64,000 nucleotides of DNA, from assembly GCA_934098525.1 (NCBI GenBank), contig CAKONZ010000007.1, forward strand, positions 11,871 to 75,870, read 5' to 3'. Shown here in pieces: positions 27,001 through 33,000 of this stretch. The position numbers were made by a program. Within the stretch, counting starts at the first letter, position 1; each line of letters begins with the position of its first letter. This stretch comes from an uncultured Bacilli bacterium (GTDB lineage Bacteria; Bacillota_I; Bacilli_A; RF39; UBA660).

Positions 27001-30000
27001 AAACTCAATTAAGGGCTACACTAGCTAAATTTTTCTTTAATGGTGAGAACGTTTTTAAAACAATTAATAAACTGTCCGGGGGAGAAAAAGTAAGATTAAA
27101 ATTAGCTGAATTAATTCAAAAAGATATTAATTTTTTAATATTAGATGAACCTACAAATCATATTGATATTGACACTAGAGAGATGCTTGAATCTGCGTTG
27201 ATTGATTTTGAGGGAACTATATTATTTGTATCTCATGACAGATATTTTGTAAATAAACTTTCTGAAAAAATTATTGAAATTAAGGATGGAAAAACAACTT
27301 CATATTTAGGAAACTATGATTACTATTATGAAAAAAAAAATAACGAAGGTTTAAGTCAACATCTTTTAAAACGTTAAAACAATTATTTAAAATAATGTTT
27401 TGAACAAACAATTCTAAAAAAAGTAGCATTAAAAGTTATTGCTATTTTTATATCATTTGGTAAAATGAATATAGTGATTGATATAAATCAATCGTCTTTA
27501 TGCGAAAGAGTTGTAAACCACTTCGTCGTATGCACCAGACTAATTGATACTCGAACTAAAAACTACTCTCAAATCAAATTGAAAGTAGTTTTATTTTGTC
27601 AATTTAGAAACACACATGCAAATTGACATAATCAATTAGCATGTGGAGTTACATTTAGTAATTCAACTTTAAATAAGTTGTGAATAATTAATAATTATAT
27701 ATATAGATGGGATACTTGTGAAGGAATAACGATGTGTTGGCAACGCCAGTAAGCATACTTTGTATGTGAGCATTCATCTTACCTGGGGTACCCATCATTT
27801 TTTTATGCATTTATTAGAAGATTGACATTTAAAAAATATAGTGTATAATATCAAGTAAGTGAGGAGATATAAATAATTATTTGTGAGCTATCTCGGGTAT
27901 TAGCCTACACGAACTTTCAAAAGTACGGAGTCACTAATTAGTGATTTGCCGTACTTTTTTCTATCTTTAAACGGTAATTCACAAGAAAAGATAGGAAGTG
28001 ATTGATTTGAATATTATTGAAGTAAAAAATCTTTCAAAGAATTATAAATATAAAGTTAAAAACGAAGAAAAAGGTTTTTTATATAATTTATTTAATGAAC
28101 AAGAAAAAGTTGTAGAAGCAGTTAATAATATTTCTTTTTGTGTTGAAGAAGGAGAAACAGTTGCATTTATTGGACCAAATGGTGCTGGTAAATCAACTAC
28201 TATAAAAATGTTAACAGGCATTCTATATCCAACAAAAGGTGATATTAAGATATGCGGTTTAACTCCAATTAAAGATAGAAACAAACTTGCTTTTAAGATT
28301 GGTACTGTATTTGGTCAAAGAAGTCAATTATTGCCAAATTTACCATTAACAGAAAGCATGGAAATGTTTGGTGCAATGTATGATATGGATAAAGTTGCAA
28401 TAAAGAAGAGAATAAATGAATTATCAGAATTATTTGATTTGAAAGAATTTATTAAGCAACCAGTTAGAAAACTTTCTTTAGGTCAAAGAATGAGGGCAGA
28501 AATTGCAACATCCTTAATACATAGTCCTAAAATTATATTTTTAGACGAGCCAACAATTGGACTTGATGTTGTTTCTAAAAAAAGTTTAAGGGATTTGCTT
28601 TTAAAAATTAATAAAGAAGAAAAAGTAACTATATTTCTGACTAGTCATGATACTGAAGATATTCAAAGTATTTGTGATAGATGCGTAATTATAAATCATG
28701 GAAAAATAATTATTGATACTTCGACAAAGCAATTAATAAGTGATTATGTTAAAAATAAAAATATAATTATAACTCCAAATGTAGAGTTTGTAGAATTTCC
28801 TGAATTATCAGATGGTATGACATATATTAAGAAAAGTAAAAATCAAGTAATAGTTGGAGTTGATACTAAAAAAATACATACTCAAAAAGCCTTGCAAGAG
28901 TTAATAAAAGTTTTTGATATTGATGATGTTAATATAGATAATGAATCTCTTGAAAACATTATAAGGAGTATTTATGAAAAAAATTAAGTTTGCTTTTATT
29001 GTTATAAAAATCTTTATGAAAAACCAAATGCAAGATAGAACAAACTTAATATTAGATGTCTTCAATATGGTATCAAGATGCTTAATTGTGTTCTTACTAT
29101 ATGCTTATATATTTAAGTTGCAAGGTGGGAGTATTAATGGAGTAGATTACAAAACAACAATGTGGAGTATGTTTATTTATTTTTGCATTATGATTTTGAA
29201 TATTAGGAGATTAGATAATATTATAATGACAGAAGTTAAAAGTGGAAATGTTGAAATGTTTATGAATAAACCTACAAATTATTTAACAATTAGTTTTATG
29301 AGAGTAATCGGTCAAGGTATATTTTCATTCTTATTCATAAGTATATTAGGATCTATAATTATGACATTATCTGTAGGTGTTCCTGATTTAAATTTGCCTA
29401 TTTTTATACCTACATTTATAATTACATTATTTCTAGGTCAAATACTAGGCTTATTAATATATGGAATAATAGGACTTATGGCATTTTTTATGCAAGATAT
29501 ACGACCAATACATTGGATAGTAGATAAATTTGTAATGATACTTGGTGGAAGTTATTTACCAATATCGATGTTTCCAAATTTTATGAAAATAATTGCTTAT
29601 GCAAGTCCATTTGGTGCGATTAACTTTGCTTCAAGTACCGTGTATGATTCTTGGAATAATGAGTTTATTATGAGAATTGCATTACAATTGTTATGGATAG
29701 GTATATTTAGTATATTGATGCACTATGTATATAAAAAATCAAAAGAAAAGGCAATGATAAATGGAGGTTAATTATGGGAAGTATTAAATTAGCTTTATTA
29801 AATATAAAGAAAAACTTTAAAAATGAAAAAGAATTAAAAAGTTCCTTCATTATTTCAGTTGTAGGTATGGTAATAAATAATATATCATTTTTAATATTAT
29901 GGTATTATTTTGGTAAAACAATAGGAGAATTAAATGGATGGAAACCAATGGATATTTTTGGTTTATATGGTTTTGGTACTACTTCGTATGGAATTGTTAC

Positions 30001-33000
30001 ATCATTATTCTCTGGAATGCTTGATATTCCAAACTATATAAGTAATGGTAATTTTGATAAGTATTTATTAACTCCAAAAAATATACTTTTAAAAGTATCA
30101 ACATCTAAAATTTCAACAAGTGCTTTTGGCGATTTGTTATTTGGAGTTGTTTGTTTTATTGTATTTGCTTTTTGGAGTAAGCTAACTTTAATTCAAATGG
30201 TATTATCAATTTTATTAATAATACTTGCTTCTATAATTTTTTATTCATTTTCATTAATATGTATGAGTATATCATTTTACTTAATGGATGGTCATAATGT
30301 TTCACAAGGTTTATATGGAATGTTTTTAAGTAACTCTTTATATCATGGTGGAGCATTTACAGGATTGTTAAGAGTAATATTTACATTTTTAATACCATCA
30401 TTATTGTTAGGGGCAATACCAGTTGAGATAGTAAAGAATTTATCGGTTTCTAATCTGATTATGATAATATTGTCAACTATATTTTGGTTTATATTATCAA
30501 TTATGTTCTTTTATAAATCATTGAAAAAATATGAAAGCAACAATCTATTTGGATTCGGAAGTTAAATAAAGTAGCATGAAAATAATTGATATAAAACCAT
30601 AAAATTTCTAATTTGTGAGTAAAAGTTTGAAATAACCTAACCATTCGCACCAGACTAATTGATACTCGAACTTTTATGAGTTCGAGTTTTAATATACCAT
30701 AAAACGTGATAAAACATTTATAGAAGAAAAAGAAGAATATAATTTTAAACAAACAAACGTGATGAGAAAAGATTAAAAAATATATCAAAATTTTTTTAAG
30801 ATAAATTAAAATATATGTTATAATTATAATAACTAAAATAGATGAAATTGATAGTAAAGATTTAGGAGTGATTATATTGTTTTTAATAATTATGATTTTG
30901 GTTATTTTAATAGCTTTTGGTAGTTACAAATTATGTGTATATTTAAATAATGATAATAATGCTAAAAAGAAGAAAATAAATAATATTATATTAAAAGTAT
31001 GCTTAAGTGGAGTATTTGTGATATTAATATTGCTATTATATAATTTAATAGCGGGATATTTAAATGGAAATGAAGGATTTTTCCAAAAAACAATTCAAAA
31101 ATTTTATTGGAGTATACCAATATTATTTATATTTTTATTATATATAATTATTTACAAAGTAAAATATAAAGGAAAAATAATTACTAATAAATTATTATAT
31201 TTTACTATAGTTATTGTTGTTGCTTTATTATCTTTCTTTCCTTTGTATAAAAAAATCTTTAATAAAATTTATTTTGATTTCACTGATTATAAATATGAGA
31301 TAGTTATTGAAGGTTTTGATTATAATAATTATTACATTCATGTTTATGACAAAAAAATAAATGTTATAAAAAAAGAAGAAACAATGTGTATTACCAATTC
31401 TTGTGACCCAATATATAATGGAGAATATGAAATTGATTTTTCTGATGAATCAATGACAAAAATATATAATTACATAGATAATTTATTTAATAATAAGAAC
31501 ATTACAAGTAAGAAAATTATATTTAATGATATCAAAGATGTTGGCGAATCAAATATAGTTAAATCTATTATATTAAATGACGAGACTTATATTAAAAATA
31601 ATTATTATAATTATAAAATAATAACAGATTCTCAATACAAAACTCTTCAAAATGATGGTGGTAGCAACATAAATGTTTACTATCAAATCAATTTGGAAAA
31701 AAATAAAATAATTAAATATGAAGATAAATATGTTGGTTTTACAGGATACGAATATAAAGGAAAAATAATCTATGAAAAAAATATCAATAATAGTATGAAT
31801 CTCAAAATAAAAACTATTATTGAAGATTTAATAACTAAAAATGATATAAATGATAAAAACAACTATACTCCTTATGTAATAGAATTTGATAATAATAAAA
31901 AAGAAATATATAACAGTGAATCAATAAAATCATTAGAAAATATTTTTAATACAATTGATAATCAATAAAATTTATAAAACAAAGGAACCCTTAATATTTT
32001 CACATTAAGGTTACCGATTAAATTAGTTCCATCTAAATCATTGTTGAATTAGATGGATTTCTTTTATAATAATACTATAAATAGTAAAGATAATAAAAGT
32101 GAAGTAATAACATATCTAATGTAAATTTATATAAAAATTTCATAATGTTTTTTAAAAATATGATAAACTAATTATAGAAATTAAATATCTGATACGGAGG
32201 GAATATGAAGTTTTATAAAACGCTAGAAAAATATAAAAACCAGGATATTGATATATATGTTGATATGGATGGTGTCTTAGCAGAATATGATATAGGTAAT
32301 TTTGATTATAATACCATAAGACCTTTACAAAGCAATATAAAAAGAATAAAAGATCTCATTAATAACAACATAAATATAAAAATACTTACAATTTGTAAAA
32401 ATAATAAAATAATAGAAGAAAAGAAAGAATGGATTAAAAAACATATGTCATTTTTTGATTTAAATAATGTTATTTTTATATCAAAAGAAGAAGAGAAATA
32501 TAAAGATATACCATCAAAAATACTAAAAAACAACTATTTAAAAGAAAATATTAACAGTAATCATATTAATATATTAATAGATGATGACAATGAAATAATA
32601 AAATATATAATAAAAAATAATAATATCATAGTTTTCCAAGTATCAAGTTGGATAGATTAATATAGGAGTAGTAATTATTATGAAGAAGTACCAAAAATAT
32701 TTTCAAAACAATGAACAATTATTAGCAAAACTAGAAGAAATACATGATAAAAAATATGCAACTAAAGAACTGATAGAATCAACAAATAACAATCCATTTA
32801 TAGTAGAAATTTCTGGATTACCTAGAACAGGCAAAAGTAGTAGTGTCATAAAAATATATGATTTTTTTAAAAAAGCTGATATTAATATTGTAAAAACAAA
32901 AGAACCTGCTCAGATAATCAAAGATACTATGAAGAAAAGTGAAATTTCTAATATGACAGGTTTAGAGTTTAACAATAAAACACTAGAAATATCTCAAAAA

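What the first reader, a model, noticed from the sequence alone, without database searches (positions are those of the whole stretch)
27421..30672. Pair of imperfect ~100–140-nt direct repeats with a perfect 26-nt core flanking the ABC-2 exporter module
GCACCAGACTAATTGATACTCGAACT occurs exactly at 27532–27557 and 30647–30672, bracketing the leader and the three transporter genes. Upstream similarity extends further: AAGTAGCAT…ATTGATATAAA begins both copies at 27421 and 30571.

Each copy has a promoter-like site upstream and is followed by a hairpin within 3 nt. In copy 2 the core's own 3' end forms the stem. Two readings are possible. The copies may be paralogous small-RNA or leader genes. Alternatively they may be the direct-repeat boundaries of a cassette that delivered the exporter into the island, with recombination between them able to excise it.
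Basis: seen in the sequence. Interest (0 to 1): 0.6.

Follow-up and report, generated by a model that had tools for sequence, protein, structure and literature searches.

The report
Junctions of stacked mobile islands
The two repeats are most likely the end-junctions of two small mobile DNA islands stacked behind a tRNA-Leu gene, which would make the ABC exporter between them the cargo of a stripped-down, integrase-less mobile element, a known kind of arrangement in a so-far undescribed element family of uncultured gut bacteria.

Summary
GCACCAGACTAATTGATACTCGAACT occurs exactly twice (27532-57 and 30647-72; none expected by chance), and identity falls off sharply on both sides.

It is not a REP-like repeat and matches no Rfam family. 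Each copy is a two-part junction.
- Left of GCACCA lies a conserved block (variant T1 in copy 1, T2 in copy 2). I found T1 at 78 distinct sites in low-GC "uncultured Bacilli" metagenome contigs and MAGs.
- Right of it lies the kind of sequence that directly follows the CCA end of tRNA-Leu, tRNA-Thr, tRNA-Phe and tmRNA genes in those genomes. The window's own tRNA-Leu(CAA) at 16109-16195 has such a sequence too.

In relatives that sequence opens an operon: a 90-aa ORF, a large serine recombinase and a Mob_Pre relaxase. Cargo follows, and a T1 block closes the element. Three complete examples span 6.5-7.3 kb.

The window shows the decayed form: tRNA-Leu, a relaxase remnant (16300-16548), 11 kb of cargo and T1 (copy 1). 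A second, recombinase-less segment follows, carrying the exporter and ending in T2 (copy 2).

The "small-RNA genes" reading is unproven. This is a new member of a known kind (tandem accretion of IMEs and CIMEs). Interest is moderate.

The parts
16109..16195 (+). tRNA-Leu(CAA), ending ...GGCACCA. Proposed anchor (attB side) of the island array.
   Evidence: ARAGORN and Rfam; sequence.
16196..16262 (+). 'G-type' right arm directly after the CCA end: TTGACGAATCTGTTCGAACTATTCGAAC...ATCAATCAGAAATGATTGATTTTTT. Left end of the integrated element.
   Evidence: The same sequence follows 14 tRNA-Leu, tRNA-Thr, tRNA-Phe and tmRNA ends in related MAGs. It also follows T1, T3 and T4 blocks.
16300..16548 (+). 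Remnant of the C-terminus of a Mob_Pre (MobV) relaxase gene. The 90-aa ORF, the serine recombinase gene and most of mob are deleted.
   Evidence: tblastn gives 84% identity over 83 aa to residues 364-446 of the 446-aa Mob_Pre protein of L075. That protein hits Pfam PF01076 at E 5.8e-13.
16605..27377 (+). Cargo of island 1: DUF6271, two unknown proteins, a PALP enzyme, an aminotransferase, an Orn/DAP-decarboxylase-like protein, an arginase-family protein, a methyltransferase and ABC-F.
   Evidence: ORFs and Pfam. Assignment to the island is inferred from its position between the tRNA-Leu junction and T1.
27421..27447 (+). Terminator-like hairpin AAGTAGCA-N11-TGCTATTT. This is the conserved start of the T1 unit, and its 3' arm overlaps the -35 box.
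   Evidence: Sequence. It is conserved as AAGTAGCA..TGCTACTTTTT in most T1 loci whatever the upstream gene.
27439..27466 (+). Promoter-like site TTGCTA-16-TGgTAAAAT of the T1 unit, reading towards the junction.
   Evidence: Consensus scan. It is conserved in the family. Function is not shown.
27468..27537 (+). T1 block (copy 1, left half), ending ...CGTATGCACCA. Proposed right-end (P-arm) sequence of island 1.
   Evidence: CM R1 scores it 94.1 bits, but it was a training sequence. 88-97% identical blocks occur at 78 distinct sites.
27532..27557 (+). Core copy 1: GCACCA (matches a tRNA 3' end) plus the first 20 nt of the right arm.
   Evidence: Exact 26-mer.
27558..27598 (+). 'A-type' terminator-like hairpin (AAAACTACTCTC...GAAAGTAGTTTT plus T-run). 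Left end of segment 2.
   Evidence: Fold. Homologous to the hairpin after T1 in L031 and L075. Relative to L031, about 14 nt (the 3' arm of the first hairpin) are missing.
27593..27645 (+). Conserved non-coding element 'a' with two mutually exclusive hairpins.
   Evidence: 83-90% homologues in L024, L031, L115, L116 and L117, mostly just after junction right arms.
27683..27816 (+). Conserved structured element 'b': a promoter-like site, an RNA-like hairpin of about 95 nt and a T-run.
   Evidence: 88-91% homologues in L031, L055, L070 and L079. Consensus fold with one compensatory pair. No Rfam match.
27822..27997 (+). Promoter (TTGACA-16-TATAAT, 12 of 12) and leader of the exporter operon, with a terminator-like hairpin at about 27918-27961.
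   Evidence: It is conserved with the module in relatives.
27998..30565 (+). ABC-2 exporter: ATPase (27998-28987) and two permeases (28974-29771 and 29774-30565). This is the cargo.
   Evidence: Pfam ABC_tran; ABC2_membrane (below Pfam's gathering score: 20.9 bits, cut-off 26.9); ABC2_membrane_6. The module is 78-82% identical at DNA level in relatives but lies in different genomic contexts.
30569..30577 (+). 5' arm only of the terminator hairpin (AAGTAGCAT). The 3' arm and the canonical promoter are deleted.
   Evidence: Comparison with L013, which has the full AAGTAGCATAAAAATTATTGCTACTTTTTCTATTCTTTGGTAAAAC.
30576..30652 (+). T2 block (copy 2, left half), ending ...CATTCGCACCA. Proposed right-end (P-arm) sequence of segment 2.
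   Evidence: 90% identical to the block after the same exporter in L013. A related block closes a complete recombinase/relaxase element in L118. CM R1 scores it 44.8 bits, but it was a training sequence.
30647..30672 (+). Core copy 2.
   Evidence: Exact 26-mer.
30664..30692 (+). 'H-type' terminator-like hairpin ACTCGAACT-TTTATG-AGTTCGAGT plus TTTTAAT. The right flank resembles what follows T1 or T3 in L116, L117 and L029.
   Evidence: Terminator scan. blastn gives 85% to L116 and 74% to L117. Sequences.

Best explanation
The two copies are the right-end junctions of two tandem genomic islands anchored at the 3' end of tRNA-Leu(CAA). The islands belong to a family of integrative mobilizable elements (IMEs) of uncultured low-GC Bacilli.

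Intact element (shown in relatives). It reads: [tRNA or tmRNA ...CACCA] | right arm with one or two hairpins, then a 90-aa ORF, a large serine recombinase, a Mob_Pre relaxase, 1-3 kb of cargo, and a conserved end block (T1, or variants T2-T4) that itself ends in ...YGCACCA. What follows is either the old flank or the left end of the next element.

The window (shown as anatomy).
- Island 1 runs from 16196 to about 27535. It has lost its recombinase and most of its relaxase gene, and it ends in T1 (copy 1).
- Segment 2 runs from about 27536 to 30650. It holds the A-type hairpin, elements a and b, the leader and the ABC-2 exporter, and it ends in T2 (copy 2). It has no recombination or transfer genes, so it resembles a cis-mobilizable element (CIME).

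Origin of the layout (inferred). One reciprocal crossover within the shared core, between a circle (T2-core-A hairpin-a-b-leader-exporter) and a chromosomal T1-core-H hairpin site, gives exactly this layout. The perfect 26-mer is the stretch the two partners had in common. The reverse event would excise a 3115-bp circle and leave a normal T1 unit.

Still open (inferred only). The crossover may be made by a family serine recombinase acting in trans, within CACCA, or by homologous recombination. The T1 promoter-like site would read across the joined ends into the recombinase operon only in the circular form.
For: 1. Same right arm after tRNA ends. The sequence right of GCACCA belongs to the same families as the sequence directly after the CCA end of tRNA-Leu(tag/gag/caa), tRNA-Thr, tRNA-Phe and tmRNA genes. 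This includes the window's own tRNA-Leu.

2. Mobility genes behind that arm.
- A conserved 90-aa ORF.
- A large serine recombinase with Resolvase, Recombinase and Zn_ribbon_recom domains at E 8e-34, 1e-16 and 4e-5.
- A Mob_Pre relaxase, PF01076 at E 5.8e-13.

3. T1 closes these elements.
- Of 78 distinct T1 sites (median 2.8 kb of upstream DNA held), 22 have recombinase or relaxase genes or remnants upstream on the same strand.
- 27 have a tRNA or tmRNA 3' end 0.5-11.3 kb upstream, and 15 have both.
- L093, L110 and L125 show the complete series over 6.5-7.3 kb.
- In L118 a T1 block is followed by a full element that ends in a T2-like block.

4. Relaxase remnant in the window. The window carries it right after the tRNA-Leu trailer.

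5. Shuffled halves. Left types (tRNA/tmRNA, T1-T4) and right types (A-H) occur in shuffled combinations, always joined at CACCA.

6. Repeats in independent loci. They start exactly at (G)CACCA and run rightwards for different lengths: 20 nt in the window, 67 nt in L120, and more than 300 nt in L012 (tmRNA versus T1, flanking the same exporter module).

7. Separate homologues for each half. Copy 1's left and right halves, and copy 2's, each have their own homologues. In L117 the T1-left and H-right halves are contiguous, which is the unoccupied configuration.

8. Mobile cargo. The exporter module sits in at least six different contexts in relatives.

9. Precedent. Accretion of IMEs with decayed CIMEs at att sites, and serine-recombinase islands in tandem behind ssrA with short 3'-end repeats, are documented (PMC5704250; PMC3146451).
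Against: - No recombinase gene lies in the 64-kb window (tblastn). Any site-specific event needs an enzyme in trans.
- Large serine recombinases need only a 2-bp crossover. They normally recombine attP with attB, not attP with an occupied junction. So a 26-nt (or 300-nt) repeat fits homologous (Campbell-type) recombination at least as well.
- The block copy 1-a-b is collinear with L031 apart from L031's own 1.3-kb insertion. The left edge of 'the cassette' therefore cannot be fixed from this window alone.
- I found no empty-site allele of this exact locus.
- The complete element in L136 has no recognisable T1-type block within 2.5 kb after mob.
- T1 could instead be a conserved chromosomal RNA gene used as an integration target, as tRNA genes are. 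Conserved synteny such as MFS-T1 in six MAGs is compatible with that.
- All data are metagenome assemblies. Nothing shows excision, circles or transcripts.
Confidence: 0.65

Rival explanations
1. The two copies are paralogous genes for a small RNA, trans-acting or tRNA-like. The body would be a hairpin whose closing stem (UGCGAA/UUCGCA) is followed by CCA, like a tRNA acceptor end. Mobile elements would use the gene as an integration target exactly as they use tRNA and tmRNA genes. The identical 26 nt would be kept by selection or gene conversion.
For: - A conserved promoter-like site and terminator-like hairpins flank a 65-70-nt block that is nearly invariant across MAGs from human, ruminant, reindeer and rabbit gut.
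- Predicted stems hold in 97% of cells, and the changes are mostly one-sided and wobble-compatible.
- There are 1-3 copies per locus.
- Some upstream synteny is conserved across species.
- In about 15 of 66 sites the next ORF downstream is on the opposite strand, so the unit does not need a downstream gene.
- This rival is not exclusive of the best explanation.
Against: - No Rfam family matches at E up to 10, even for canonical members.
- ARAGORN finds no tRNA-like gene there.
- Covariation is no better than shuffles: 1 pair with a two-sided change, and 490 of 500 shuffles reach the observed score.
- Copy 2 has lost the promoter.
- The block's position at the distal end of recombinase/relaxase elements is explained more simply if it is an element end.
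- No expression data exist.
Confidence: 0.2
2. Nothing is mobile here. Two resident, diverged paralogous intergenic units were partly homogenised by gene conversion, giving a 26-nt identical patch. That the exporter lies between them is coincidence.
For: - The left halves are diverged homologues: about 55% identity in register and alignable with gaps.
- TTGATACTCGAACT is shared with L029 and L031, so part of the core is family-wide.
- Only GACTAA is specific to this genome.
Against: - Identity ends abruptly on the right, where the flanks are unrelated (20-30%) and each has different homologues elsewhere.
- The same repeat geometry, starting at CACCA, recurs around the same exporter in L012 and around other cargo in L120.
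- The exporter module is demonstrably in different contexts in relatives.
Confidence: 0.1
3. The repeat is a generic REP-like or terminator-associated repeat, or a chance match, with no specific meaning for this locus.
For: The genome is AT-rich and full of short chance repeats. Hairpins after genes are common.
Against: - Shuffles expect 0.00 matches.
- Only two copies occur in 64 kb, even by covariance model with filters off; the next hit scores 17 bits.
- The exact 24-mer is absent from 185,579 species-representative genomes and from IMG/VR.
- Both copies belong to a specific, structured family.
Confidence: 0.02

Closest known systems
Tandem accretion of ICEs or IMEs with cis-mobilizable elements (CIMEs), as defined for ICESt1/ICESt3-related islands of Streptococcus thermophilus and reviewed by Guedon et al. 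2017 (PMC5704250)
   Same: [quoted passage not shown] It sits in tandem with a related element behind a target gene, and direct repeats mark each junction. Excision or co-mobilisation needs a recombinase in trans.
   Different: The classical cases use tyrosine integrases and repeats that are the 3' part of the target gene. Here the associated recombinase is a large serine recombinase. The only block shared by all junctions is (G)CACCA. The repeat extends into the element's own left arm rather than into the tRNA. No mobility has been shown.
Dehalococcoides ssrA-specific genomic islands (McMurdie et al. 2011, PMC3146451)
   Same: Serine-recombinase islands integrate at the 3' region of a tRNA-like gene (tmRNA) and form tandem arrays. 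Each island is closed by a short repeat of the gene's 3' end with an extra conserved motif just upstream. The integration module sits next to attL. Many array members lack the module and carry adaptive cargo.
   Different: Those islands insert in the T-loop with a 20-bp repeat and use a CcrB-like plus small PinR-like recombinase pair. They have no relaxase and a single target gene. Here the junction is at the extreme CCA end, and several tRNA species, tmRNA and element ends serve as left partners. A MobV relaxase is present, and the conserved upstream block is about 70 nt with a promoter-like site.
Tn4451/Tn4453-type IMEs of Clostridia (large serine recombinase TnpX plus MobV relaxase TnpZ)
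   Same: Small mobilizable elements that combine a large serine recombinase with a Mob_Pre/MobV relaxase and a few cargo genes in low-GC Firmicutes (as summarised in PMC5704250).
   Different: [quoted passage not shown] It is not described there as targeting RNA genes or forming arrays behind tRNA genes.
tRNA- and tmRNA-targeting genomic islands and prophages with tyrosine integrases
   Same: An island lies directly downstream of an intact tRNA gene, and its distal end is marked by a copy of the tRNA 3' end. L040 even shows a 17-nt displaced tRNA-Leu 3' fragment with a native-type trailer.
   Different: The identity block here is usually only 5-7 nt of the tRNA. No tyrosine integrase was seen. 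Several different tRNAs are used.

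Membership tests
Cis-mobilizable element (CIME) in an accretion array | Flanked by attL- and attR-type junctions derived from an ICE or IME family | tested here: met
   Met at sequence level. Both junctions have a family left block (T1, T2), GCACCA and a family right arm. Homologous junctions bound recombinase/relaxase elements in relatives.
Cis-mobilizable element (CIME) in an accretion array | Lacks its own recombination and transfer genes | tested here: met
   Between 27538 and 30646 there are only the non-coding elements a and b, the leader and the three ABC genes. 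tblastn with the family recombinase, relaxase and 90-aa ORF finds nothing there.
Cis-mobilizable element (CIME) in an accretion array | Lies in tandem with a related element at the same target gene | tested here: met
   tRNA-Leu(CAA), G-type arm, Mob_Pre remnant, cargo and T1 lie immediately upstream.
Cis-mobilizable element (CIME) in an accretion array | Can be excised or mobilised by a related element's recombinase | not testable with these tools
   This needs reads, PCR or genetics.
Integrative mobilizable element (IME) with serine recombinase and MobV relaxase | Encodes its own site-specific recombinase | tested here: not met
   Absent from the whole window. Present in relatives L057, L074, L086, L093, L110, L118, L125 and L134-L136. 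So the window holds decayed derivatives, not an IME.
Integrative mobilizable element (IME) with serine recombinase and MobV relaxase | Encodes a relaxase and has an oriT | tested here: not met
   Only an 83-aa C-terminal remnant is present at 16300-16548. No oriT was identified. A candidate inverted repeat lies upstream of mob in L075.
Large-serine-recombinase att site | A site of about 40-50 bp with imperfect dyad symmetry around a 2-bp crossover shared by both partners | tested here: inconclusive
   T1 joined to the G-type arm reads TTCGTC-GTTCG-CA-CCATT-GACGAA, symmetric about CA inside the shared CACCA (read). The window's own T1 or T2 plus core shows no such symmetry. No statistics or biochemistry were done.
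Any described RNA family (Rfam 15) | Covariance-model match at or near the gathering score | tested here: not met
   There are no hits on either copy, or on canonical family members, even at E up to 10.
tRNA or pseudo-tRNA gene | Cloverleaf detectable by ARAGORN or the Rfam tRNA model | tested here: not met
   Only tRNA-Leu (16109) and tRNA-Glu (51427) are in the window. The resemblance is limited to a stem followed by CCA.
REP-like or dispersed intergenic repeat | Many copies per genome, unrelated to a particular locus type | tested here: not met
   There are 2 copies in 64 kb. Related MAG loci hold 1-3 per stretch, and these are linked to tRNA/tmRNA genes and mobility genes.

The most novel reading that the evidence does not exclude
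The end blocks (T1-T4) may be more than passive att arms. They carry a conserved outward-reading promoter-like site and encode a hairpin RNA that ends in a tRNA-acceptor-like stem plus CCA. On circularisation this would become the leader of the 90-aa ORF, recombinase and relaxase operon, giving a junction-dependent switch for integrase expression. The recombinase would recognise little more than a stem followed by CACCA. One element family could then target many tRNA species, tmRNA and its own ends, and so build cassette arrays behind RNA genes, functionally like an integron but made with a serine recombinase.
Probability: 0.15. Interest if true: 0.7.

Novelty: new member of a known kind. Interest (0 to 1): 0.4.

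Why it matters
The result turns an odd pair of repeats into a readable map. About 14.5 kb of this window (16196-30650) is probably accreted mobile DNA behind tRNA-Leu, and the ABC-2 exporter with its conserved leader is exchangeable cargo. The same module sits behind tmRNA in the closest relatives.

It also exposes an apparently undescribed family of small elements carrying a serine recombinase and a MobV relaxase. The family is widespread in uncultured low-GC gut Bacilli of humans and herbivores. Its junctions lie exactly at the CCA end of several RNA genes, and its ends carry an unusually conserved block of about 70 nt.

Recognising the T1 block and the (G)CACCA junction gives a simple marker for delimiting islands and cargo in these MAGs. 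If the recombinases prove active, their short, well-defined sites could interest people who mine serine integrases.

Tried and rejected
- Known RNA family. Rfam at gathering and at E up to 10, on the window and on canonical members, gave nothing.
- tRNA or pseudo-tRNA. ARAGORN found nothing at either copy.
- Exact-core search. The 24-mer is absent from genome contigs and viral contigs. Scaffold patterns are absent from viral contigs.
- Part of the exporter module. Relatives with 72-89% permease identity lack any core-like sequence near the module.
- Small peptide. The frame ATG-CGA-AAG-AGT-TGT-AAA-CCA... is often followed by a nearby stop. But there is no Shine-Dalgarno sequence, several members lack a start codon, and substitutions show no synonymous bias (reading). 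Rejected.
- Riboswitch or cis-leader. Downstream genes are heterogeneous, and about a quarter are on the opposite strand. Rejected as the main function.
- Guide-RNA scaffold (TnpB/IscB-like) with a variable 3' guide. The 'variable' part has conserved architecture, falls into a few families shared with tRNA trailers, and no nuclease gene is associated. Rejected.
- T1 as oriT with the nick at GCACCA, with the relaxase doing the integration. Once a serine recombinase turned up in the operon, and a better oriT-like inverted repeat was seen directly upstream of mob in L075, this became unnecessary. It is not excluded.
- Covariation support for an RNA structure. The sequences are too conserved, and the score is no better than shuffles.
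- Empty-site allele, sought through homologues of the downstream 366-aa protein. Only unrelated contexts were found.

Full report
**Observation.** The 26-mer GCACCAGACTAATTGATACTCGAACT is present exactly at 27532-27557 and 30647-30672. No further match with up to 3 mismatches exists in the window, and shuffles expect none. The copies are 3115 nt apart. They bracket a consensus promoter, a leader and three ABC genes: an ATPase and two ABC-2 permeases.

Identity ends abruptly. The 10/20/40 nt to the left are 30/45/55% identical in register. The 10/20/40 nt to the right are 20/30/28% identical. A gapped alignment shows weak homology for about 75-110 nt upstream.

AAGTAGCAT lies at 27421 in copy 1 but at 30569 in copy 2, not 30571. 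Copy 1 has a good promoter-like site (27439-27466) and a hairpin 1 nt after the core. In copy 2 the core's 3' end is the 5' arm of a terminator-like hairpin.

A 12.8-kb stretch of a 77.8-kb ENA metagenome contig covering both copies is 100% identical to the window. A second, independent contig covers copy 2. The window has 25% G+C.

**Not a known RNA and not a dispersed repeat.** Rfam gives nothing on either copy at E up to 10, and ARAGORN finds no tRNA there. The exact 24-mer core is absent from the species-representative genomes and from IMG/VR.

**The exporter is mobile cargo.** The exporter module is conserved at 78-82% DNA identity in relatives, from the promoter at 27822 to the stop codon at 30565. 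It lies in at least six different genomic contexts, and the more distant relatives have no core-like sequence next to it.

In the closest relatives (permease 95% identical) the DNA right after the permease stop is 88% identical to copy 1's left part, with homology ending at GCACCA. In L013 it is 90% identical to copy 2's left part.

**A family appears.** A 19-mer from copy 1's left part (GTTGTAAACCACTTCGTCG) found about 50 genuine low-GC loci in the metagenome collection. It also found 27 low-GC stretches in the genome collection, from MAGs mostly labelled uncultured Bacilli (human Hadza gut, rumen, reindeer, rabbit; Firmicutes bacterium CAG:582).

The unit has four parts:
- a terminator-like hairpin (AAGTAGCA..TGCTACTTTTT);
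- a promoter-like site (TTGCTA..TGgTAAAAT);
- a nearly invariant block of about 65-70 nt ('T1') ending in UUCGCACCA;
- a variable part made of a linker of about 12 nt and one or two hairpins.

A covariance model finds only the two copies in the window, and both were training sequences (94 and 45 bits; the next hit scores 17 bits). It finds essentially one copy per related locus. The proposed stems are compatible with the variation but have no covariation support. Neighbouring genes are heterogeneous.

**The key link.** Listing every ..GCACCA context in the related DNA showed that the 'variable part' is the same kind of sequence that directly follows the CCA end of true tRNA-Leu(tag/gag), tRNA-Thr, tRNA-Phe and tmRNA genes.

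The window's own tRNA-Leu(CAA) (16109-16195) ends GGCACCA and continues TTGACGAATCTGTTCGAACTATTCGAAC...ATCAATCAGAAATGATTGATTTTTT. This 'G-type' arm follows 14 tRNA or tmRNA ends and also T1, T3 and T4 blocks.

Left types (tRNA/tmRNA, T1-T4) and right types occur in shuffled combinations, always joined at CACCA.

**What lies behind the arm.** After the right arm comes a conserved operon:
- a 90-aa ORF beginning MIKIIKEEIEIDES...;
- a large serine recombinase with Resolvase, Recombinase and Zn-ribbon domains, full length in L057 and L074;
- a Mob_Pre/MobV relaxase, PF01076 at E 5.8e-13.

L135 shows the left junction cleanly: tRNA-Thr ...GGCACCA|TTGACGAATCTG..., then the 90-aa ORF and the recombinase.

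**T1 closes the elements.** Of 78 distinct T1 sites, 22 have recombinase or relaxase genes or remnants upstream on the same strand. 27 have a tRNA or tmRNA 3' end 0.5-11.3 kb upstream, and 15 have both.

L093, L110 and L125 show the complete series (RNA-gene end, 90-aa ORF, recombinase, relaxase, cargo, T1) over 6.5-7.3 kb. In L118 a T1 block is followed by a complete element that ends in a T2-like block. L040 has a classical displaced 17-nt tRNA-Leu 3' fragment with a native-type trailer.

**Reading the window.**
- The tRNA-Leu(CAA) G-type arm is followed at 16300-16548 by a remnant of the relaxase C-terminus, 84% identical over 83 aa.
- Then come 11 kb of cargo.
- T1, which is copy 1, closes this first island.
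- After copy 1's GCACCA comes an A-type arm as in L031 and L075, lacking about 14 nt.
- Two further conserved non-coding elements follow (a at 27593-27645; b at 27683-27816), also found in related elements.
- The exporter operon follows.
- T2, which is copy 2, closes the segment.
- T2 has lost the 3' arm of the upstream terminator hairpin and the canonical promoter.
- After copy 2's GCACCA the arm is H-type, as after T1 or T3 in L116, L117 and L029.

So copy 1 is T1-left plus core plus A-right, and copy 2 is T2-left plus core plus H-right. This is what one reciprocal crossover inside the shared 26 nt would give, between a circle (T2-core-A-a-b-leader-exporter) and a chromosomal T1-core-H site. 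In L117 the T1-left and H-right halves are contiguous, as expected for an unoccupied site.

The same geometry recurs independently:
- In L012 the same exporter, with a 91-aa ORF and a KilA-N gene, lies between a tmRNA gene and T1. It is flanked by a repeat of more than 300 nt that starts exactly at CACCA.
- In L120 a 75-nt repeat starting at TCGCACCA links tRNA-Leu and T1, 3.3 kb apart.

**Mechanism: shown and inferred.**
- Shown: the junction anatomy, its homology to tRNA and tmRNA-adjacent element ends, the association with serine recombinase and relaxase genes in relatives, the decay of those genes in the window, and the mobility of the exporter module among contexts.
- Inferred: that the arrangement arose by integration of a circular intermediate, that the 26-mer marks the exchanged segment, and that recombination between the copies could excise a 3115-bp circle.
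- Open: whether the enzyme is a family serine recombinase acting in trans or RecA.

Serine recombinases need only a 2-bp crossover and normally do not use occupied junctions. Repeats of 20-300 nt fit Campbell-type homologous integration at least as well. T1 joined to the G-type arm reads TTCGTC-GTTCG-CA-CCATT-GACGAA, a dyad centred on CA within the shared CACCA. That is suggestive of a serine-recombinase site, but the window's own junctions lack this symmetry.

The conserved promoter-like site in T1 points across the junction. In a circle it would face the recombinase operon, which is an untested idea.

**Comparison with known systems.** The arrangement matches tandem accretion of IMEs with decayed cis-mobilizable elements (review PMC5704250). 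It most resembles the Dehalococcoides ssrA islands, which are serine-recombinase islands in tandem behind tmRNA. Each of those is closed by a 20-bp repeat with an additional conserved motif upstream, and many lack the integration module (PMC3146451).

It differs in several ways:
- the junction lies at the extreme CCA end;
- several RNA genes and element ends serve as partners;
- a MobV relaxase is present;
- the end block is about 70 nt long.

According to the review, serine-recombinase IMEs usually integrate within protein-coding genes. So the target choice is unusual but not unprecedented.

**Verdict.** The 'cassette boundary' reading is essentially correct, and the 'small-RNA gene' reading is unproven and secondary. 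This is a new member of a known kind (a CIME in an accretion array, in an undescribed element family). Interest is moderate.

Noticed in passing
window 27683-27816: Element 'b': a promoter-like site followed by an RNA-like hairpin of about 95 nt (GAUGGGAUACUUGUGAAGG...GGGGUACCCAUC) and a T-run. It is 88-91% conserved in L031, L055, L070 and L079, where it lies about 2.3 kb upstream of T1, ahead of the cargo genes. The consensus fold has a long closing helix and one compensatory pair. No Rfam match.
   Followed up: partly
window 27593-27645: Element 'a': two mutually exclusive hairpins (TGTCAATTT..AAATTGACA versus CACATGCAAATTGA..TCAATTAGCATGTG). It is conserved after junction right arms in L024, L031 and L115-L117. 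In L116 it directly precedes a gene, so it could be an attenuator or an operator.
   Followed up: partly
window 27822-27997: The exporter has a 12-of-12 consensus promoter and a leader of about 145 nt with a terminator-like hairpin (about 27918-27961). The leader stays with the module in relatives even where extra genes (106+68 aa, 166 aa, 207 aa) sit between leader and ATPase. This suggests a conserved attenuation-type control. No Rfam match.
   Followed up: partly
window 16605-27377: An 11-kb co-oriented gene set between the tRNA-Leu junction and copy 1: DUF6271, two unknown proteins, a PALP enzyme, an aminotransferase, an Orn/DAP-decarboxylase-like protein, an arginase-family protein, a methyltransferase and an ABC-F protein. 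It looks like a small-molecule (polyamine or amino-acid-derived) pathway carried as island cargo.
   Followed up: partly
L012 1108-1420 and 5908-6230 (closest relatives of the window): The same exporter module lies between a tmRNA gene and a T1 block. It is flanked by a direct repeat of more than 300 nt (about 92% identical) that starts exactly at CACCA. The repeat includes the 90-aa ORF, intact on the tmRNA side and truncated to 32 aa on the T1 side.
   Followed up: yes
L040, minus strand about 8377 (plus strand about 1101): A 17-nt 3' fragment of tRNA-Leu(tag) (TCCCTTCACCCGCACCA), preceded by unrelated sequence and followed by a trailer like that of the apparently unoccupied tRNA-Leu in L028. 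This is a classical displaced tRNA end at the far end of an island array.
   Followed up: partly
L031 about 1500-2830 (minus strand): A 1.3-kb insertion with degraded coding sequence lies between the T1 right arm and element a. It is flanked by TTTTGAYAATTTAG on both sides. The window has the uninterrupted arrangement.
   Followed up: no
L003 6780-6830, L005 2220-2290: A 23-nt unit (TTCGGAAGTTGATATAATTTGGC) at the very 3' end of the second permease gene is tandemly duplicated, two copies in L003 and three in L005.
   Followed up: no
L116 2040-2170, L093 about 9430-9580; L056, L109, L122: Further end-block variants. T3 is a short hairpin, UGUGAU..AUCGCA plus CCA, behind a TGGTATAAT promoter. 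T4 ends ...GGCTCTTGTATCGCACCA and lies 1-2 kb downstream of tmRNA genes. Both are joined to the same right-arm families.
   Followed up: partly
window, whole: Strong strand asymmetry: A 44% versus T 30% on the + strand, and almost every ORF of at least 100 aa is on the + strand. A T-box leader lies at 51935-52133 upstream of the gene at 52168.
   Followed up: no
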